Positions 16,855 to 35,036 of a DNA stretch of 64,000 nucleotides are shown piece by piece; the stretch's first letter is position 1, and each line of letters begins with the position of its first letter. The position numbers were made by a program, and so were the translations under genes. The notes under the pieces were generated by a model. It saw nothing but the letters and a program-made list of their open reading frames with translations, ran no database searches and was not told the DNA's origin. The stretch spans positions 45,941 through 109,940 of the forward strand of contig JBEKJC010000005.1 in the NCBI GenBank assembly GCA_050011435.1, in the 5' to 3' direction. Source of the DNA: Candidatus Binataceae bacterium. GTDB taxonomy: Bacteria; Desulfobacterota; Binatia; Binatales; Binataceae.

Positions 16855-17679
16855 TCACGCGACGATCCGCTCCGGATGCGTGTAAATGTTGAAGTTGGGC
16901 TCGCGCAGGAATCCCACCAGCGTCATCCCGAGGTCGTCGGCCAACTCGACCGCCAGCGATGACGGCGCCGATACCGCGCACAAAATCGGCACGCCTGCGG
17001 CAGCCGCCTTTTGCACGATCTCGAAACTGAGCCGTCCGCTCACCATCAGGGCGTGACGCGCGAGCGGAAGCAGATCTCGCGCGAGCGCAAAGCCGACCAC
17101 CTTGTCGACCGCATTATGGCGGCCCACGTCCTCACGCAGGACGATCAGCGTTGGCGTGTCCATGCTTTCGAGCGCGAACAGAGCCGCCGCATGCAAGCCG
17201 CCGGTCGCGGCAAAGACCGCCTGCGCCTCGCGCATCATCGCGGGCAGGCGGAGCAGCGCCGGCGGCGCGATTGCGGCCGTGCTGGTGATCGGCGCAATCC
17301 GCCGCTCGATCGCTTCGATACTGGTCTTGCCGCAGATGCCGCAACTCGACGAGACCACGAAGTTGCGCTGCATCCGTTCGCGCAATCCGGCCGCGGGAAC
17401 ATTGAGGATGACGTCGATCGCGTTGGGGTCCGGGGCGCCTTTGGAATCGCGCAAGCGGCGAATCTCGCCGAGTTCGCCACGTGCGTTCACGAAGCCCTCC
17501 GCCATCAGGAAGCCGGCCGCGAGTTCCTCGTCATGGCCGGGCGTGCGCATCGTCAGCGTGAAGCGACGGCCGGCGAGGCGAATTTCGAGCGGCTCCTCGA
17601 CCGCGAGCCGGTCGGCTGCTTCGCACAGGGCGCCATTGCGCCATTTGAAGGCAGGCCGCAGCTTTACGGATTCGCTCAT
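16855..17679 (-). CDS. fdhD: formate dehydrogenase accessory sulfurtransferase FdhD
   Basis: The conserved SSCGICG motif and the overall FdhD layout. Confidence 0.85.
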   Translation of the reverse strand: MSESVKLRPAFKWRNGALCEAADRLAVEEPLEIRLAGRRFTLTMRTPGHDEELAAGFLMAEGFVNARGELGEIRRLRDSKGAPDPNAIDVILNVPAAGLRERMQRNFVVSSSCGICGKTSIEAIERRIAPITSTAAIAPPALLRLPAMMREAQAVFAATGGLHAAALFALESMDTPTLIVLREDVGRHNAVDKVVGFALARDLLPLARHALMVSGRLSFEIVQKAAAAGVPILCAVSAPSSLAVELADDLGMTLVGFLREPNFNIYTHPERIVA

Positions 17680-17688
17680 CGCGACCGG

Positions 17689-18561
17689 CTATGCGATCCA
17701 CGCCTTGGCCATCGTCTCGAGCTCATGCTCGTACTCGTTGGGCCCGAGCTTCTCCGGGAACAGGATCAGCCGATGCGCCCCAGCCTCCTGGTAAGCCGCG
17801 ATCGTCCGCTTCGGATCACCGCCCTGCGTCACGGGCGCATATATCGTGATTTCGAGCTTGCTGAAGTCGCGGCCTGCCTCGGCGCACATCTTCTTGAGCT
17901 TCACGAGCTCCGCCACCAGCTGCTCCGGCGGGACCCCGAGCGGCGCCCAGCCGTCGCCAATCGCGACCGTGTCCCGCAGCGCGCGCTCCATGCTCGGACC
18001 GATGCCGCCCGCGCCGACGTGGACCGGCGGATGCGGTTTGCGCGCGGGCTTGGGATTGCTTTTGACCGCGGGGAACTTGATGAACTCGCCGTCGAACGAG
18101 GCTTCGGGCTTGGTCCACAGCTCCTTCATCGCGTTGACGTACTCACGCGTGATCGCCCAGCGCCGTTTGAAATCGACGCCCATGATTTCGCTTTCATCGC
18201 GCAGCCAGCCCGCACCGATTCCGAAGATGAAGCGGCCGCCCGAGTAATGGTCGAGCGTCGCGATCACTTTCGCCAGGATCAGCGGGCTGCGCTCGGGCAC
18301 GAGGCAGATGCCGGTGCCGAGGCCGATGCGCGTGGTCGCAGCCGCCGCCAGCGTCAGGCCGACGAACGGATCGATCATGTGCGCGTATGGCTCCGGAATC
18401 TCGCCGTCGGGCGACAGCGGATACCGCGTTTTGTGCTTCACCGGCAGAATCGGATGCTCGGGCAGGTAGAAAGATTCGAAGCCGAGCGCCTCGCACTTTT
18501 TGGCGACGGCGGCGGGATCGGCGGTGTAGGTTGCAACGAATGCCAGGACTCCAATTTTCAT
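17689..18561 (-). CDS. LLM-class F420-dependent oxidoreductase (luciferase-like monooxygenase family)
   Basis: MKIGVLAFVATY..., FYLPEHP, GIGAGW and a TIM-barrel LLM signature. Confidence 0.8.
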   Translation of the reverse strand: MKIGVLAFVATYTADPAAVAKKCEALGFESFYLPEHPILPVKHKTRYPLSPDGEIPEPYAHMIDPFVGLTLAAAATTRIGLGTGICLVPERSPLILAKVIATLDHYSGGRFIFGIGAGWLRDESEIMGVDFKRRWAITREYVNAMKELWTKPEASFDGEFIKFPAVKSNPKPARKPHPPVHVGAGGIGPSMERALRDTVAIGDGWAPLGVPPEQLVAELVKLKKMCAEAGRDFSKLEITIYAPVTQGGDPKRTIAAYQEAGAHRLILFPEKLGPNEYEHELETMAKAWIA

Positions 18562-18788
18562 TTTGCATTCCTCTCTGTTTCAGTGATTGACGCTTTTTTC
18601 AGTGCTGGACGCTCGCGATGGCTCGGATAGGGGGCTAAGTTCTGCGGTAACAGAAAGCGCGAGCGATTTGAGACTTGTACGCGGTTTTTTCTCAAATTTC
18701 ACCATCAATCAGTGCGCTGGCGCTCACAGCCCCCGGGGGCTTGGCCGGCTGCCCGAGCATCGCGAGCGTCAATCCCACGATGGGAAGT

Positions 18789-18810
18789 TTGAAACCTTGT
18801 AAGGTTTCAA
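18789..18810. promoter_or_regulatory. palindrome TTGAAACC-N6-GGTTTCAA (copy A), ~230 bp upstream of the LLM start
   Basis: Perfect 8-bp arms. One of three related palindromes upstream of consecutive minus-strand units. Confidence 0.4.
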
Positions 18811-18865
18811 CGCCCGAAAGAAATCATAGTTTTGCGTTCTTCAACAACTCTCTTCTCGCTCTGCC

Positions 18866-19267
18866 TCAGGTCAGGAAGACTTCGCGAATCAGGTTGGTGT
18901 CGTTGTATTCGCGTCCCTCGGCGATCAGGTCGCCCTCGAAACGCAGGAAGAAATTGTAGCGTTGGCGATAGCGGCGCCCGTTCATCGCGGTCGTATCTGC
19001 CTCCGCGGTGGCAGCGACGAAGTCCCCCTCGGCAATCACCGTCTCGAGCCGCAGTTTGAGGCCCTCCGGGAACAGCCGCTTGAGGAGCGTGCATTCGGTC
19101 ATCGCGAAATTCTTGCGCCCCTCGATCGGCGGAAACTCGCGCAGCGCCGAAACGATCTCGAAGCGAAAATTCTCGGCAATCAGATCCTCGAAGACCGCCG
19201 GGTCGACCGCGTTTAGGTTTTCGAGAAATCTGATCGCGCGTAGCTTTTGTTCGGCTAGTGTCACCAT
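18866..19267 (-). CDS. NTF2-like / SnoaL-like small protein
   Basis: ~133 aa with an NTF2-fold-like composition. The start was chosen at MVTLAEQ. An alternative start at 19324 would place the upstream repeat inside the coding sequence. Confidence 0.5.
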   Translation of the reverse strand: MVTLAEQKLRAIRFLENLNAVDPAVFEDLIAENFRFEIVSALREFPPIEGRKNFAMTECTLLKRLFPEGLKLRLETVIAEGDFVAATAEADTTAMNGRRYRQRYNFFLRFEGDLIAEGREYNDTNLIREVFLT

Positions 19268-19375
19268 GATTGACGCTCGCGATGCTCGATACGTGGCTAA
19301 GTCTTGCTTAAGGGTCGCATGCACTTGGCACGGCCGTCGAGATCATATGCGCTCCCTCTTCCAGCAATGGGGAGT

Positions 19376-19397
19376 CTGAAACCTCGTGAGGTTTCAG
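19376..19397. promoter_or_regulatory. palindrome CTGAAACC-N6-GGTTTCAG (copy B), ~110 bp upstream of the NTF2-like gene
   Basis: Perfect 8-bp arms. The surrounding ~85 bp is similar to copy A. Confidence 0.4.
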
Positions 19398-19452
19398 TAA
19401 ACTATAGGTTTTGCGCTCCGCAACCACCCTCCCCGCTCTTTCGGTCCGTGCC

Positions 19453-19929
19453 CTACTTCCAGCCGAAGAAGTCGCGGGCATAAACGAATTTCCCGACGCC
19501 GCCCGCGCGCGCAGCCTGCTCGTCCACTTCCTGATCGCCCACCATCGTCGAGCCCTTGAGATCGACTCCGTGGATCTCCGCCAACTCCAGGATCATGCCG
19601 CCCTTGGGTTTGCGGCATTGGCAGCCGTCGGCATCATCGTGCGGGCAGATTTGCCATCCGGTCAGAATATCGCCCAACTGGCGGTCGAGGTCGAGGATCG
19701 CGGCCTCGACCTGGGCCAATCGAAAGCGCCCGCGCTTGACGCCGGCCTGATTGGTCACGACGAACATCAGATGGTCGTGGATCGGGGCGAGCTTTTCGCG
19801 CACGCCCGGCAGCAGTGTGACGGTTATGTTGCCTTGCGCGTCGATCGGGAGCTGGCGGGTCTCGTCCATCGCGACGAGCGTGCCGGCCAAGTCGAAAAAG
19901 AGCGCGATATTGCCCGCGTCGTGTGGCAT
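19453..19929 (-). CDS. HAD-IIIA hydrolase, D,D-heptose 1,7-bisphosphate phosphatase (GmhB)-like
   Basis: LFFDLAGTLV (DxD-type motif I region), VVTNQAG, the Zn-binding CPHxxxDxCxCRKP motif, and MVGDQEVD. Confidence 0.7.
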   Translation of the reverse strand: MPHDAGNIALFFDLAGTLVAMDETRQLPIDAQGNITVTLLPGVREKLAPIHDHLMFVVTNQAGVKRGRFRLAQVEAAILDLDRQLGDILTGWQICPHDDADGCQCRKPKGGMILELAEIHGVDLKGSTMVGDQEVDEQAARAGGVGKFVYARDFFGWK

Positions 19930-19932
19930 CGC

Positions 19933-21339
19933 TCAGTCACCGTTGCGCCAATCGGCATGGTCGCGCACGTGGGCAAAGACTTCGTCGAGAATCGAGATTC
20001 CGGCGTCGGCCTGCTCCTCGGTGATCACGAGCGGCGGGTTGATGCGCACGCGCGGGAAATAGCCCATGAGCAAGAGCCCGCGCTTGAGCGATTCGGTGAA
20101 GACCAGCTCCATGACCTTGCGGCCCAGCTCGCGCCGGGACTTGCGATCGCGCACGAGGTCGAGACCGATCAACAGGCCGCGTCCGCGTACGTCACCGAGA
20201 AATTCGTATTTCTCTTGCAGCTCAAGCAGCCGCTTGAGCATCACGGCACCGACCTTACGCGAATTCTCGACGAGCTTTTCCCGCTGGATCGTCTTGATTG
20301 TCGTCGCCAACGCCGCGGCCGCGAGCGGATTACCGCCGTAGCTCGAGGACGACGCGCTGGGCTTGGCGAACGGCTCGGCCTTGCCGATTTCATCGCTCAT
20401 GAGCACGCCCGAAATCGGAAAGCCCGAGCCCATGCCCTTGCCGACGGTGACGATATCTGGGGTCACGCCGCTGTGATCGACGCCCCACCATTTGCCGGTT
20501 CGACCAAAGCCGGTGATCATCTCGTCGGCGATCAGCAGTGCGCCGTTATCCCGCGCGACCGACTTGATCGCGGGCAGCCAATCGTCGGGCGGAATCACGT
20601 TACCGGCAGTACCCTGCATCGGTTCGGCGATCACTGCGGCGATCGCGCCGGCGGAGGAATTCTTGATCTGCTTGCGCGCGAATTCGACGCAATAGAGCCC
20701 GCAGTCCGGGTAGGTCATCTTGAACGGGCAGCGGTAACAGTCGGCGTAGGGCACCTGGTAACGACCGCCCGGCAGCGGCCCATAGCCCTGCTTGGATTCA
20801 TCGCCGATAAGCCCGAGCACGCCCATGGTCTTGCCGTGGAAGCCGCCCCAGAAGCTGACCACCTCATCCTTCTTGGTCACGGACCGCGCGAGCCTGAGCG
20901 CCGCTTCGACCGCCTCGGCGCCGCCGCTATACAGATGCGCGCGCTTCAGGTTGGCGGGCGCCACCTCGCTGATCAGCTTGAAGGCCTCGACGCGCTCGCG
21001 CGTCGCGAACGTCCCGACCATCAGGCGCGCCGCTTGTTTGGAAATCGCCTCGGCCAGCGCCGGATGTCCATGACCGAGGCTGGCGACCGCGACGCCAGCG
21101 AAGAAATCGACGTAGGTGTTGCCGTCGGCATCGGTCAAGGTCGCGCCGTTACCGTACTCAAAGGCAACACCCGCGAGCAGCGAGATCCGCTGGCGGCCGG
21201 GCGCGATATAGCGCTGCTCTTCGGCGAAGATCTCGCGCGATTTGGGGCCGGGCACCGGGGTTACGATTTTCGGCAGTTTGGCCTTGGCGGCCGCCCCGTC
21301 GTTAACGCGTTTTGAAGTTGAAACTTGCGCCGTCCTCAT
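19933..21339 (-). CDS. class III (omega-type) aminotransferase, PLP-dependent
   Basis: GGFHGKTMG, LLIADEMITGFGRTGKWWG and TVGKGMGSGFP, with the PLP-binding Lys. ATG 21339 is preceded by GGAG. Confidence 0.85.
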   Translation of the reverse strand: MRTAQVSTSKRVNDGAAAKAKLPKIVTPVPGPKSREIFAEEQRYIAPGRQRISLLAGVAFEYGNGATLTDADGNTYVDFFAGVAVASLGHGHPALAEAISKQAARLMVGTFATRERVEAFKLISEVAPANLKRAHLYSGGAEAVEAALRLARSVTKKDEVVSFWGGFHGKTMGVLGLIGDESKQGYGPLPGGRYQVPYADCYRCPFKMTYPDCGLYCVEFARKQIKNSSAGAIAAVIAEPMQGTAGNVIPPDDWLPAIKSVARDNGALLIADEMITGFGRTGKWWGVDHSGVTPDIVTVGKGMGSGFPISGVLMSDEIGKAEPFAKPSASSSSYGGNPLAAAALATTIKTIQREKLVENSRKVGAVMLKRLLELQEKYEFLGDVRGRGLLIGLDLVRDRKSRRELGRKVMELVFTESLKRGLLLMGYFPRVRINPPLVITEEQADAGISILDEVFAHVRDHADWRNGD

Positions 21340-21545
21340 CTCCTCATCATCCGTATGATCTTCCGCATGGCGCGCCAACCTTTTTTTCCGAAATGCTGGC
21401 GGCGCCGATGACCCGTAAGCACTGTCGTGCAATCGAGCGCAAGTCAAGTAGTGCTTAGGGTTCCGCCAACCGAGGGGGAGCAAGTTCCGGTCACAACGAA
21501 GGGCTCAAAATCGCCAGACGCTGCAAACTCGAAAGCAAGAGGCTC

Positions 21546-21568
21546 TTGAAACCTTTGAAAGGTTTCAA
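21546..21568. promoter_or_regulatory. palindrome TTGAAACC-N7-GGTTTCAA (copy C), ~210 bp upstream of the aminotransferase
   Basis: Perfect 8-bp arms with the same half-site as copies A and B. Confidence 0.4.
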
Positions 21569-21609
21569 ACCTCCCACGGTGAACCGGCGGGGCGCAGGGG
21601 TAGCGCGAT

Positions 21610-33630: not shown

Positions 33631-35036
33631 CGTGCCCCGAGTCCGCCCGCGCATCGATACGCTGACGGTGATATGGTCTTCACCGCTGGCGTGCCGTTAT
33701 ACTTCGGGCGCGTCAGTTGTGATTCGACGCCGTCATTCAGGGTCGGGGTGTGGCGCAGCCTGGTAGCGCACACGCTTGGGGTGCGTGTGGTCGCCGGTTC
33801 AAATCCGGCCACCCCGACCAACAATAAATCCTTTGTTTTCAAGTAGTTAGTGCACTGACCGCGCGGTCGACCGCCCGCAGGTTCCGGCGATTGTGCCCAA
33901 TTTTGTGCCCTCCCCCCCTCGTAGCCAGAAATATCCGTGTTTTTTGCGGTGCGCTCCAGGGTCGCGATGGCCTCGCGCCGGGCTTGCACGCGGATGTGAG
34001 CGTAACGGCCAAGCATCCGGTCGCTCACGTGCCCGGCCAGTTGCCGGATGGTCTCGACCGACACGGTCGCGTTCTCCGCAAGACGGGTGACGAACGTGTG
34101 GCGCGCATCGTAGAAGCGGCACGTGACCGCGACCTTTCGCCGTGCGGTTTCAAATGCGCTTTTGTAGCTCCACTGACCCATGGGGCGATTCAGGTCCACG
34201 TCCCAGATCAAAGATTTACGGCTGTTGCCTGCCAAACCCACCCGATGAAACGGGAAGACGTAGTTGTCGGGCCCGGTCTCGGGAAAGCGCCCACGCCAGA
34301 TGGTAAGCGCTGCGCAGGCGCGCCTGGTGAGAGGAATGACGCGGCCGGTGCCACCCTCGGTCTTGGATCGCGACACCACGATCTCGCCTTCGCTGATTGC
34401 GCCATCCGTCCAGCGCAGGGCCAGGTCACACCAATGGAGCGCCCGGCTCTCGGACGGTCGCAGGCCCGCATCCAGCGACAACACGAAAAACGGATACAGG
34501 ACCGGCGACGGGCTTGCGGCAATGGCCGCGAGCAGCTTGTCTTCCTCTTCGAACGAAAGAGCGCGTCCGGCATCGGTCCTTTCTCGGAGAAACCGAACTC
34601 GACCGCCAAGGGGCGACCAGCAGTCGCAGTGCTTGAGAATCTGCCTCAACGTCGCCACTTCGCAATTTATGCTTCGAGCGGAGAGCCGCTCGCCAAGGCG
34701 TTTCCTCTGCAGTGCCGCGATATCGTTGATCGTAATATCCGACACCAGCCTGCTACCGAACTCGCGCACGAGCTTGCGCGAATATTGTTCGTAATAAACT
34801 CTGCCGAGGGGTGTGAGGGCGCTTTTGGATGCGAGCCACTCCTTGGTGGCCAGCGCGAATAGGGGCAAGCGTTCACGTTTGGAGATGCGGTTGTAACCCA
34901 ATTCGAGGTCGCGTCGGCGCGCCCGTTCCGCTTCGCGCGCGACGGTCTTCGAGTTGGTTTTTGCCGAGTCCCGTATGAGCTGCCCTTGGAAGAGGAACTT
35001 GAACCAATACGTCTCGCCTCGTTTATAAACGCTCAT
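33543..35036 (-). CDS. int: tyrosine-type integrase (phage integrase family); the ORF has no stop until 33543 and runs antisense through tRNA-Pro
   Basis: N-terminal SAM-like domain (MSVYKRGETYWFKF...). Catalytic R...HxxR (ARHTFVTRL)...H (LAGHVS)...Y (LGRYAH) around residue 345. RBS GAGAGAGG before ATG 35036. The functional C-terminus is probably well upstream of 33543. Confidence 0.85.
   Translation of the reverse strand: MSVYKRGETYWFKFLFQGQLIRDSAKTNSKTVAREAERARRRDLELGYNRISKRERLPLFALATKEWLASKSALTPLGRVYYEQYSRKLVREFGSRLVSDITINDIAALQRKRLGERLSARSINCEVATLRQILKHCDCWSPLGGRVRFLRERTDAGRALSFEEEDKLLAAIAASPSPVLYPFFVLSLDAGLRPSESRALHWCDLALRWTDGAISEGEIVVSRSKTEGGTGRVIPLTRRACAALTIWRGRFPETGPDNYVFPFHRVGLAGNSRKSLIWDVDLNRPMGQWSYKSAFETARRKVAVTCRFYDARHTFVTRLAENATVSVETIRQLAGHVSDRMLGRYAHIRVQARREAIATLERTAKNTDISGYEGGRAQNWAQSPEPAGGRPRGQCTNYLKTKDLLLVGVAGFEPATTRTPSVCATRLRHTPTLNDGVESQLTRPKYNGTPAVKTISPSAYRCAGGLGARQAFFLAATRGRHWKKDRKSMAKVHAFRG
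33590..33635. repeat. 3' end of the SDR gene; a second copy lies at 48283-48335
   Basis: CGGGTCGCGGCCAAGAAAAAGGCCT is identical over 25 nt, and the flanking TTCCAATGG...GACGT is also similar. Confidence 0.7.
33744..33820 (+). tRNA. tRNA-Pro (anticodon GGG), 77 nt including CCA
   Basis: Folded manually: 7-bp acceptor CGGGGTG/CACCCCG, D-arm GCGC-AGCCTGGTA-GCGC, anticodon arm CACGC-TTGGGGT-GCGTG, T-arm GCCGG-TTCAAAT-CCGGC. Confidence 0.85.
33891..33911. repeat. arm-type-like direct repeat TGTGCCCAATTTTGTGCCCT just inside the left end of the island; a second copy lies at 61086-61106
   Basis: A 20/21-nt exact repeat found near both island ends in the same orientation. It contains an internal GTGCCC-N6-GTGCCC direct repeat. 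Confidence 0.6.

What the first reader, a model, noticed from the sequence alone, without database searches (positions are those of the whole stretch)
18585..19440. Shared ~130-bp leader element, with an internal long inverted repeat, upstream of the LLM and NTF2-like genes
Beyond the palindrome, the two upstream regions share a further ~85 bp around the palindrome (ATGGG-AGT-TGAAACC…GTTTTGCG-TC…) and a ~45-bp block beginning GATTGACGCTCGCGATG-CTCG. That block abuts the start codon of the NTF2-like gene. In the LLM leader this block forms a long inverted repeat (18585-18626 versus 18753-18774) enclosing a GC-rich segment. It could be a duplicated promoter/5' UTR, a small mobile repeat (MITE-like), or a structured RNA leader.
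Basis: seen in the sequence. Interest (0 to 1): 0.5.

Follow-up and report, generated by a model that had tools for sequence, protein, structure and literature searches.

The report
Dispersed intergenic repeat family of Binataceae
The two look-alike "leaders" are not a gene-specific control region but two copies of a short, hairpin-containing DNA repeat that occurs dozens of times between genes in this uncultured soil/peat bacterial lineage (Binataceae), comparable to the REP, BOX or MITE repeats of better-known bacteria.

Summary
Both intergenic regions flanking the SnoaL/NTF2-like gene carry the same blocks: a 22-nt palindrome with conserved flanks, and a GATTGACGCTCGCGATGCTCG block in direct and inverted copies. 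These blocks are not specific to this operon. A pattern for the palindrome core (chance expectation about 0.1) hits 53 stretches in eight MAGs that are Binataceae by record title or by shared elements and flanking genes, and at least 118 stretches of peat/soil metagenome contigs. It hits no viral contig.

- All 135 non-redundant metagenome copies, and 75 of the 77 genome-derived copies (window, L010 and L014 copies included), lie between predicted genes.
- They occur in either orientation relative to the neighbouring genes.
- Between convergent genes they outnumber those between divergent genes, 38 to 23.
- The family is modular: purine tract, M1, hairpin B, optional hairpin M4, then block A direct and/or inverted.
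- Both window architectures recur in other genomes.
- The two window copies are less alike (62%) than most inter-genome pairs, so this is not a local duplication.
- Relatives at 80-85% protein identity keep the gene order but lack the repeats.
- A third, inverted copy lies at 21547-21567.
- No Rfam match, promoter, terminator or nearby Y1 transposase was found.

Verdict: a previously undescribed, lineage-restricted REP/BIME/MITE-like repeat family. It is a new member of a known kind, of modest interest.

The parts
19268..19445 (-). Repeat unit in the HAD/NTF2 intergenic region. Read on the minus strand: purine tract, M1, hairpin B, about 80 nt of spacer holding a degenerate direct A, then inverted A. 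This 'M1-B-<A' type fills essentially the whole 185-nt intergenic region.
   Evidence: nhmmer E=1.9e-22. The same architecture of about 147-160 nt occurs in L021, L039 and L057 from other genomes.
19376..19397 (.). Hairpin B core, CTGAAACCTCGTGAGGTTTCAG on the plus strand. The conserved tail (ACTCCCC here, consensus ACTTCCC) lies on the minus strand.
   Evidence: 9-bp stem kept in 67 aligned copies.
19268..19307 (+). Module A, extended: GATTGACGCTCGCGATGCTCGATACGTGGCTAAGTCTTGC. It is inverted relative to the unit and abuts the NTF2 ATG. The ATG lies within the sequence TCAATCATG.
   Evidence: L010 carries 23 extra nt here.
18578..18863 (-). Composite repeat in the NTF2/LLM intergenic region. 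Read on the minus strand: purine tract, M1, hairpin B, direct A, a 107-nt spacer of which the first ~80 nt have no match elsewhere, inverted A, then a partial tandem copy of the A end. This is the 'M1-B-A>-<A' type.
   Evidence: (nhmmer E=4.6e-22).
18789..18810 (.). Hairpin B core, TTGAAACCTTGTAAGGTTTCAA. The tail ACTTCCC lies on the minus strand.
   Evidence: The T-A closing pair is the compensatory variant seen in 6 of 67 copies.
18753..18774 (-). Module A, direct relative to its unit. Positions 18754-18774 are the perfect 21-nt inverted partner of 19268-19288. It is also the inner arm of the long inverted repeat in this intergenic region.
18604..18645 (+). Module A, extended, inverted relative to its unit: CTGGACGCTCGCGATGGCTCGGATAGGGGGCTAAGTTCTGC. 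It is the outer arm of the long inverted repeat. It is preceded by a partial tandem copy at 18578-18594.
   Evidence: 60-90-nt matches in dozens of loci. The same tandem end duplication is present in L017.
21545..21575 (+). Third B-type hairpin, TTGAAACCTTTGAAAGGTTTCAA plus tail ACCTCCC, in the intergenic region upstream of the aminotransferase gene. It is inverted relative to the other two and belongs to a different subfamily (TTTGAAA centre).
   Evidence: One search gives 85-95% matches over 28-54 nt in many loci.

Best explanation
The two 'leaders' are two independent members of a lineage-restricted, modular, dispersed intergenic repeat family of Binataceae (candidate phylum Binatota). A third copy lies 2 kb away.

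A unit is about 150-250 nt. Its modules, in order, are:
- a purine-rich tract;
- M1 (GTTGTTGAGGAACGCAAAAC plus a small A/T hairpin);
- the nearly invariant hairpin B (CTGAAACCTCACGAGGTTTCAG followed by ACTTCCC);
- optionally a G+C hairpin M4 (GATGCGGGCTGCGCCC);
- module A (TTGACGCTCGCGATGCTCGG..GGCCAAGTC), direct, inverted or both.

Shown here: the family exists, is strictly or almost strictly intergenic, is independent of gene orientation, and occurs in tens of copies per genome. It varies in presence, number and orientation between close relatives. The window's two architectures recur in other genomes.

Inferred: the elements spread, or once spread, as non-autonomous DNA. Hairpin B would be the site recognised by a trans-acting protein, which would explain why its stem is conserved far better than the rest. 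The mobilising enzyme is unknown.

In this window the copies lie between co-directional genes: one upstream of the aminotransferase, one between HAD and NTF2, one between NTF2 and LLM. No promoter or terminator is detectable in the two intergenic regions that were scanned (HAD/NTF2 and NTF2/LLM), so those two copies at least are most likely co-transcribed. Their only likely effect is the one classically ascribed to REP/BIME, BOX and Correia repeats. They would add stable stem-loops to the polycistronic mRNA: the 9-bp B hairpin in both, and an A/A stem of about 20 bp enclosing about 130 nt in the LLM leader. Such stem-loops can modulate processing, decay or translation of the flanking cistrons.
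For: Dispersal.
- The pattern TGAAACCNYACRAGGTTTCARACT (my estimate of chance expectation is about 0.1 for 596 Gb) hits 53 stretches and 63 sites in eight MAGs. Two are titled Candidatus Binataceae, five delta proteobacterium/Deltaproteobacteria, one Acidobacteriota. About 28 sites fall in one long-read MAG.
- It hits no viral contig.

Location.
- 75 of the 77 genome-derived copies (window, L010 and L014 copies included) and all 135 non-redundant metagenome copies lie between predicted genes. My gene caller reproduced the JGI calls on the window.
- Tandem contexts: 22+38 sense against 23+34 antisense.
- Convergent 14+24 against divergent 8+15.

Modules.
- Among 195 copies, M1-B-M4 occurs 35 times, M1-B 32, M1-B-A> 12, M1-B-<A 9 and M1-B-A>-<A 6. 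The last two are the window's types.
- The extended A module alone matches dozens of loci.

Core constraint.
- The mismatch spectrum of the 29-mer core is 37/21/5/4/3/1/3 for 0-6 mismatches. Whole units within one genome are only 81-90% identical.
- The tail TCCC and the GGAAC of M1, which were not part of the search pattern, are at least 90% conserved.
- The stem is fixed while the centre varies, in 102 hairpins.
- The closing pair is C-G in 59 copies and U-A in 6.

Not a local duplication. The window copies are 62% identical, ranking 62nd and 50th of 66 comparisons.

Presence/absence.
- Same gene order without the repeats in L007, L008 and L009, at 80-85% NTF2 identity.
- Repeats present, in different number and orientation, in L014 at 88%.
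- Only a handful of sites are orthologous between genomes.

No known RNA or signal..
Against: - No transposase, no clear terminal inverted repeats and no target-site duplication were found. The best candidate for terminal repeats matches 11 of 17 positions, by my own reading of the consensus ends. No recurrent flanking duplication is visible in the flanks printed.
- No pair of copies at different loci exceeds about 90% identity. Current mobility is therefore not shown. The pattern could equally reflect an old burst followed by selective retention.
- The rest of the window's own genome could not be examined. Only three copies, all within 2.8 kb, are seen in 64 kb.
- Strong conservation of the B stem across species would also fit a host function, such as protein binding, rather than selfish spread.
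- The exact-pattern search biases the sample towards intact B cores.
Confidence: 0.75

Rival explanations
1. The B palindrome (TGAAACC-N6-GGTTTCA) is the operator of a global transcription factor, and the copies define a regulon. Under this reading the two 'leaders' co-regulate the NTF2-like and LLM genes.
For: - The half-sites are perfectly conserved while the centre varies.
- The location is strictly or almost strictly intergenic.
- Several flanking genes belong to acyl-CoA/lipid-type metabolism: acyl-CoA dehydrogenase, MaoC, enoyl-CoA hydratase and HpcH.
- The core is conserved across species better than its surroundings.
Against: - Copies are more frequent between convergent genes (38) than divergent genes (23).
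- When the upstream gene is on the same strand, the hairpin typically sits about 55-63 nt after its stop codon.
- The palindrome is always embedded in a directional unit of 100-250 nt made of further conserved modules. Operators are not.
- The distance to downstream start codons ranges from tens to thousands of nt.
- Syntenic relatives manage without it.
Confidence: 0.12
2. The units are structured RNAs: either a cis-acting leader (riboswitch or attenuator) for the downstream gene, or multi-copy small RNA genes.
For: - The LLM leader folds far better than shuffled sequence (-107 kcal/mol, z = -3.0).
- The B hairpin keeps pairing, with one compensatory pair.
- In one MAG (MFD02248), B is followed by a second hairpin plus a T-run that resembles an intrinsic terminator in the same orientation.
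Against: - Orientation relative to the flanking genes is essentially random.
- RNAalifold retains only the 9-bp B hairpin.
- The NTF2 leader folds no better than shuffles (z = -0.4).
- There is no Rfam match.
- No sigma-70-like promoter or terminator is found in the window copies.
- The spacing between the GGAAC of M1 and B varies from about 16 to 27 nt on my count from the alignment. This argues against a fixed ECF-type promoter.
Confidence: 0.07
3. A simple local duplication of one intergenic region within this operon.
For: Two copies in the same orientation 587 nt apart, flanking one small gene.
Against: - Dozens of copies exist elsewhere.
- The two copies are less similar to each other than to most copies from other genomes, and they belong to different architectural types.
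- Both sites are already occupied in L014.
Confidence: 0.02

Closest known systems
REP / BIME elements and REPIN-RAYT systems of Enterobacteria and Pseudomonas
   Same: - A short, highly conserved palindromic core.
- Strictly extragenic location, in either orientation.
- Tens of copies per genome.
- Often just downstream of stop codons, inside operons or between convergent genes.
- Frequent inverted doublets, and a mosaic of the palindrome with other short motifs, as in BIMEs.
- Restricted to one lineage.
REPINs are defined as two inverted REPs that are thought to exploit a RAYT transposase (PMC3337134, PMC3116915).
   Different: - No GTAG-type tetranucleotide lies next to the hairpin.
- The stem is A/T-rich.
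- Only about 24 of 195 copies have an inverted partner within 300 nt.
- No Y1/RAYT-like ORF lies within the ~1.3 Mb sampled around copies. The queries were recalled from memory, so this negative is weak.
- The conserved unit is much longer than a REP.
Modular or MITE-like intergenic repeats: BOX (boxA-boxB-boxC) and RUP of Streptococcus pneumoniae, ERIC/IRU of enterobacteria, Correia elements of Neisseria (from my own knowledge)
   Same: - Size of 100-250 nt.
- Modular composition with optional modules.
- Intergenic, and likely co-transcribed with neighbouring genes.
- Able to form long stem-loops in mRNA.
- Variable presence between close relatives.
   Different: - No clear terminal inverted repeats.
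- No target-site duplication.
- No related autonomous insertion sequence identified.
- Copies differ by 10-25%, so there is no sign of recent bursts.
IS200/IS605-derived miniature elements (PATEs) (from my own knowledge)
   Same: They lack terminal inverted repeats and target duplications, and they carry subterminal hairpins.
   Different: - No TnpA-like ORF was found in the sampled loci. TnpB was not searched.
- No conserved target tetranucleotide could be defined.

Membership tests
REP/REPIN-RAYT | Short (about 20-40 nt) imperfect palindrome that is the conserved core of the repeat | tested here: met
   A 22-nt palindrome with a 9-bp stem is kept in 67 of 67 aligned copies. In 102 hairpins the stem is fixed and the centre varies.
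REP/REPIN-RAYT | Extragenic, high copy number, both orientations | tested here: met
   75 of 77 and 135 of 135 copies lie between predicted genes, and orientation is about 50:50. About 28 sites occur in one MAG. Copy number in the window's own genome could not be tested.
REP/REPIN-RAYT | Replicative unit is an inverted doublet of two REPs separated by a short spacer | tested here: inconclusive
   About 24 of 195 copies have an inverted B within 300 nt. The MFD02248 variant pairs B with an inverted B-like hairpin 20 nt away. Most copies are singletons.
REP/REPIN-RAYT | A cognate single-copy RAYT (Y1 transposase) gene flanked by the repeats | tested here: not met
   tblastn with RAYT, IS200 and IS608 TnpA queries found no hit at E<=0.05 in 813 kb, and nothing better than E=0.15 in about 470 kb around copies. 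The test is weak: the queries were recalled from memory, and whole genomes were not searched.
REP/REPIN-RAYT | Conserved tetranucleotide (GTAG-type) adjacent to the hairpin | tested here: not met
   The 5' context is a T-rich tract ending in C. The 3' context is ACTTCCC.
MITE | Terminal inverted repeats | tested here: inconclusive
   The consensus ends GAGTTGTTGAGGAACGC and the reverse complement of the A end match at 11 of 17 positions, by my own reading.
MITE | Target-site duplication | tested here: not met
   The flanks of 10 'M1..<A' units show no recurrent direct repeat. AGAGAG on both sides of the LLM-leader unit is the only example.
MITE | A related autonomous element encoding a transposase | tested here: not met
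   The 2.4-2.5-kb segments bracketed by inward-facing copies in L036 and L037 carry unrelated ORFs. The two L036 ORFs have no Pfam hit. The L037 ORFs were listed but not scanned.
Rfam RNA families (any) | Match to a curated covariance model | tested here: not met
   Searches returned only tRNAs and chance-level hits.
Integron attC / cassette array | Repeats clustered in one array after promoterless cassettes, in one orientation | tested here: not met
   Copies are dispersed over many contigs, in both orientations, among housekeeping-type genes.

The most novel reading that the evidence does not exclude
Hairpin B (with its tail ACTTCCC and the GGAAC of M1) is the recognition site of a still unidentified protein that is not a Y1/RAYT transposase. 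Two versions are possible. The family could be a REPIN-like, vertically maintained repeat-enzyme partnership of a new type in an uncultured phylum. Alternatively it could be a host-adopted 'punctuation' signal that sets processing or decay points inside operons. The far stronger conservation of the core than of the rest of each unit, across at least eight species, is what keeps this reading open.
Probability: 0.15. Interest if true: 0.55.

Novelty: new member of a known kind. Interest (0 to 1): 0.3.

Why it matters
- Annotation. These stretches should be labelled as repeat elements, not as promoters, leaders or small ORFs. Spurious ORFs such as 19308-19481 run through them. The annotated ATG of the NTF2-like gene lies inside a repeat module.
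- Binataceae biology. This is, as far as the searchable literature shows, the first description of a REP/MITE-like family in this uncultured lineage. It gives a lineage marker, a likely cause of contig breaks and intergenic variability in MAGs, and a handle for finding the protein that recognises the hairpin.
- Limits. It does not open a long-standing question. Dispersed intergenic repeats are common in bacteria.

Tried and rejected
- Rfam at gathering and at permissive thresholds, on the window and on 18 loci: nothing.
- Sigma-70 promoter and intrinsic terminator scan of the region: none in the intergenic regions.
- Sigma-54 reading of TGGCTAAGTCTTGC: the GG-GC spacing is 9 nt instead of 10 and varies between copies. 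Rejected by inspection.
- ECF-type promoter (GGAAC-N17-TCTGA) across M1/B: the spacing varies from about 16 to 27 nt, the -10-like bases are not conserved, and the copies are orientation-independent. Rejected.
- Small ORF starting at the TTG after the purine tract: the frame is broken by indels between copies. Rejected.
- B as the terminal repeat of an autonomous insertion sequence (inward-facing copies bracketing 2.4-2.5 kb in L036 and L037): the interiors differ, no transposase-like ORF was recognised, and the two L036 ORFs have no Pfam hit. Rejected.
- RAYT/IS200/IS608 transposases near copies: no hit.
- Inversion of the NTF2 segment between the perfect 21-nt inverted repeats: all eight independent contigs fetched that carry these copies have the same orientation.
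- Six contigs carrying the identical protein were 100% identical over 931 nt and therefore uninformative.
- Viral contigs: no copy.
- Integron attC and CRISPR-like readings were considered and dropped, because the copies are dispersed and not arrayed.

Full report
**Observation**

All genes around the finding lie on the minus strand:
- class-III aminotransferase, 19933-21378
- HAD-like phosphatase, 19453-19929
- SnoaL/NTF2-like protein, 18866-19267
- luciferase-like monooxygenase (LLM), 17689-18561
- FdhD, 16855-17679

The finding concerns two intergenic regions. IGR1 is 19268-19452 (185 nt, between HAD and NTF2). IGR2 is 18562-18865 (304 nt, between NTF2 and LLM).

- A palindrome with conserved flanks: 18773-18852 matches 19360-19431.
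- A block of about 40 nt beginning GATTGACGCTCGCGATG: 19268-19307 matches 18604-18645.
- An inverted copy of that block at 18753-18774, which gives IGR2 a long inverted repeat.

None of this is chance. The palindrome pattern, the 21-mer and the 13-mer core each occur more often than in any of 100 shuffles.

Two corrections are needed.
- The outer arm of the IGR2 inverted repeat is 18604-18625. The stretch 18578-18594 is a partial tandem copy of the end of the block.
- 18754-18774 and 19268-19288 are a perfect 21-nt inverted pair bracketing the NTF2 gene.

**Organism and relatives**

The NTF2-like protein occurs with identical sequence on at least 22 peat-metagenome contigs. Its homologues are annotated as Candidatus Binataceae. 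Six of those contigs are 100% identical to the window across 931 nt, so they carry no information.

Relatives at 80-85% protein identity (L007, L008, L009) keep the gene order aminotransferase-HAD-NTF2-LLM-FdhD. They have none of the shared blocks in any of the three intergenic regions.

Closer relatives do have the blocks, with differences.
- L010/L011/L012 (94%) have both units. They carry 23 extra nt between block A and the NTF2 start.
- L014 (88%) has B in IGR1, B in IGR2, and a further B in inverted orientation in IGR2.

Number and orientation therefore vary among close relatives, while the genes stay put.

**A dispersed family**

I scanned one genome per species (185,579 species, GTDB) with TGAAACCNYACRAGGTTTCARACT, which covers all six copies known at that point. 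My estimate of the chance expectation is about 0.1.
- It returned 53 stretches with 63 sites. All lie in eight MAGs: two titled Candidatus Binataceae, five delta proteobacterium/Deltaproteobacteria, and one short Acidobacteriota contig. Both strands are represented, and about 28 sites fall in one long-read MAG.
Several large contigs carry two to four copies, and one contig comes from a sample that also yielded a contig carrying the window's locus (L001).
- It found nothing in viral contigs.
- A search allowing a variable hairpin centre finds 102 B-type hairpins in about 470 kb.
- A profile HMM of the family finds the two window copies at E about 1e-22. It also finds a third, weaker one at 21526-21576.

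The third copy is TTGAAACCTTTGAAAGGTTTCAA plus ACCTCCC on the plus strand. It is inverted relative to the other two and lies in the intergenic region upstream of the aminotransferase. It belongs to a subfamily with many copies elsewhere.

**Anatomy**

An alignment of 67 copies gives this consensus:

GnGAnAGTTGTTGAGGAACGCAAAAC-TTTnAnTTTT-n-CTGAAACCTCACGAGGTTTCAGACTTCCC-nTTTGnnAAGATGCGGGCTnCGCCC

I call the parts as follows.
- A purine-rich tract.
- M1.
- B, the hairpin plus its tail.
- M4, a G+C hairpin.
- A, the module TTGACGCTCGCGATGCTCGG..GGCCAAGTC. It follows in direct orientation, in inverted orientation 70-170 nt further on, or both.

Among 195 non-redundant copies the commonest combinations are:

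| Combination | Copies |
|---|---|
| M1-B-M4 | 35 |
| M1-B | 32 |
| B alone | 21 |
| B-M4 | 16 |
| M1-B-A> | 12 |
| M1-B-<A | 9 |
| M1-B-M4-A> | 8 |
| M1-B-A>-<A | 6 |

IGR1 is an M1-B-<A unit. It is 155 nt from M1 to the end of A, matching 147-160 nt in L021, L039 and L057. IGR2 is an M1-B-A>-<A unit. Both window architectures are therefore family-wide types, not peculiarities of this operon.

The extended A module (about 60-90 nt) by itself matches dozens of loci. The first ~80 nt of the 107-nt spacer enclosed by the two A copies in IGR2 match nothing.

In one MAG (MFD02248), M1 is missing. There B is followed after 20 nt by an inverted B-like hairpin (GCGAAACCCAGTCTGGGTTTCGC) and a T-run.

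**Position relative to genes**

I wrote a codon log-odds gene caller. It reproduces the JGI gene calls on the window.
- 75 of the 77 genome-derived copies (window, L010 and L014 copies included) and all 135 metagenome copies lie between predicted genes.
- In tandem gene pairs the unit is sense 60 times and antisense 57 times.
- It lies between convergent genes 38 times and between divergent genes 23 times.
- When the upstream gene is on the same strand, its stop codon lies a median of about 55-63 nt before the hairpin. On my reading, that places the start of the purine tract and M1 only some 10-30 nt after the stop codon.
- Flanking genes are ordinary metabolic genes.

This distribution is strictly or almost strictly intergenic, orientation-blind, and biased away from divergent promoter regions. 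It is what REP- or MITE-like repeats show. It is not what a promoter, an operator or a 5' leader would show.

**Constraint and age**

The 29-nt core is nearly invariant. Counts for 0 to 6 mismatches are 37, 21, 5, 4, 3, 1 and 3. Whole units within one genome are only 81-90% identical over 160-240 nt, and units from different genomes about 72-80%.

Part of the core conservation is ascertainment, because I searched with the core. But positions outside the search pattern are also at least 90% conserved, namely the TCCC of the tail and the GGAAC and AA of M1.

The stem is fixed while the centre varies. The closing pair shows the only covariation, C-G in 59 copies and U-A in 6.

The two window copies share 62% identity over M1-B-tail. 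That ranks 62nd and 50th of 66 comparisons, so they are not a recent local duplication. Both sites are already occupied in L014.

Only a few sites are shared between genomes at orthologous positions. No pair of copies at different loci exceeds about 90% identity, so ongoing mobility is not demonstrated.

**What it is not**
- No Rfam family matches.
- No sigma-70-like promoter or intrinsic terminator is found in IGR1 or IGR2.
- RNAalifold keeps only the B hairpin.
- IGR2 folds well as RNA (z = -3.0) because of the A/A stem. IGR1 does not (z = -0.4).
- Inward-facing copies bracketing 2.4-2.5 kb in L036 and L037 enclose unrelated ORFs. No transposase-like ORF was recognised there, and the two L036 ORFs have no Pfam hit.
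- No Y1/RAYT-like coding sequence lies in the ~1.3 Mb around copies. The queries were recalled from memory, so this is a weak negative.
- No target duplication or convincing terminal inverted repeat was found.
- The searchable literature has no description of the motif or of repeats in Binatia/Binatota.

**Most likely mechanism**

The existence, distribution and modular make-up of the family are shown. Three further points are inferred.
- The units are, or were, non-autonomous mobile DNA.
- The B hairpin is kept intact because a trans-acting protein recognises it. REPs and RAYTs are the model (PMC3337134, PMC3116915).
- In this co-directional gene cluster the units are most probably transcribed through. 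No promoter or terminator signal interrupts the two scanned intergenic regions. They would act only as RNA stem-loops that can modulate processing, decay or translation of the flanking cistrons. This role has been established for REP/BIME, BOX and Correia elements in other bacteria (from my own knowledge).

One local consequence is visible. The window lacks 23 nt that L010 has between module A and the NTF2 start. These include the only Shine-Dalgarno-like GAGGG, so here the repeat abuts the start codon directly.

**Verdict**

The element is a new member of a known kind of bacterial genome feature, in a lineage where none had been described. Interest is modest (0.3). The open and more interesting question is which protein recognises the conserved hairpin.

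Noticed in passing
window 21545-21575 (+): A third B-type hairpin (TTGAAACCTTTGAAAGGTTTCAA plus ACCTCCC) lies in the intergenic region upstream of the aminotransferase gene, inverted relative to the other two. Three copies therefore sit within 2.8 kb and none in the other 61 kb. Similar hot spots exist elsewhere, for example five copies in the 8 kb of L066.
   Followed up: partly
window 18754-18774 and 19268-19288: A perfect 21-nt inverted repeat brackets the NTF2-like gene plus one B hairpin (493 nt between the arms). All eight independent contigs fetched that carry these copies have the same orientation, so there is no sign of inversion.
   Followed up: partly
window 19262-19290; L010 438-482: Relative to L010 (94% protein identity), the window lacks 23 nt (GTGAAAAACGCGAGGGTCTATCA) between two near-identical octamers, GTCAATCA and GTCTATCA. 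The loss removes the only Shine-Dalgarno-like motif before the NTF2 gene. The annotated ATG lies inside the sequence TCAATCATG. Relatives are 132 aa, which suggests the next codon, GTG (19264-19262), may be the true start.
   Followed up: partly
window 21398-21451 (minus-strand reading CTACTTGACTTGCGCTCGATTGCACGACAGTGCTTACGGGTCAT): A motif 30-70 nt upstream of the aminotransferase start is conserved in L007, L008 and L009, which lack the repeats, and at 96% in L139. It is probably the real promoter or regulatory region of the aminotransferase-HAD-NTF2-LLM-FdhD cluster.
   Followed up: no
L007 4400-5428, L009 4400-5427, L014 about 1860-1900: Relatives L007 and L009 have an extra 284-aa LLM paralogue between the NTF2 gene and the 290-aa LLM. 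It is preceded by a conserved motif, CTGGAATTCGCGCCCGGTWTYTGCGACAACTCGA, which is also present in L014. The window and L008 lack the paralogue, and the window lacks the motif.
   Followed up: no
L036 4889-7347; L037 3868-6392 (MAG MFD02248.bin.2.125): Inward-facing B plus terminator-like hairpin units bracket segments of 2.4-2.5 kb where the host-trained gene caller finds no genes. Their ORFs differ between the two loci, and the two L036 ORFs have no Pfam hit. One L036 ORF has a C-terminus reminiscent of CHAT domains, but this is my recollection and was not tested.
   Followed up: partly
window 19308-19481 (-) and 18587-18802 (+), among others: Mechanical ORFs of 57-94 aa run through the repeat units. 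Equivalent spurious small genes (36-50 aa) are called by the source annotation in L010, L011 and L014. They are translations of the repeat, not genes.
   Followed up: partly
window 33744-33817 (+): A tRNA gene, the only Rfam gathering-level hit in the window.
   Followed up: no
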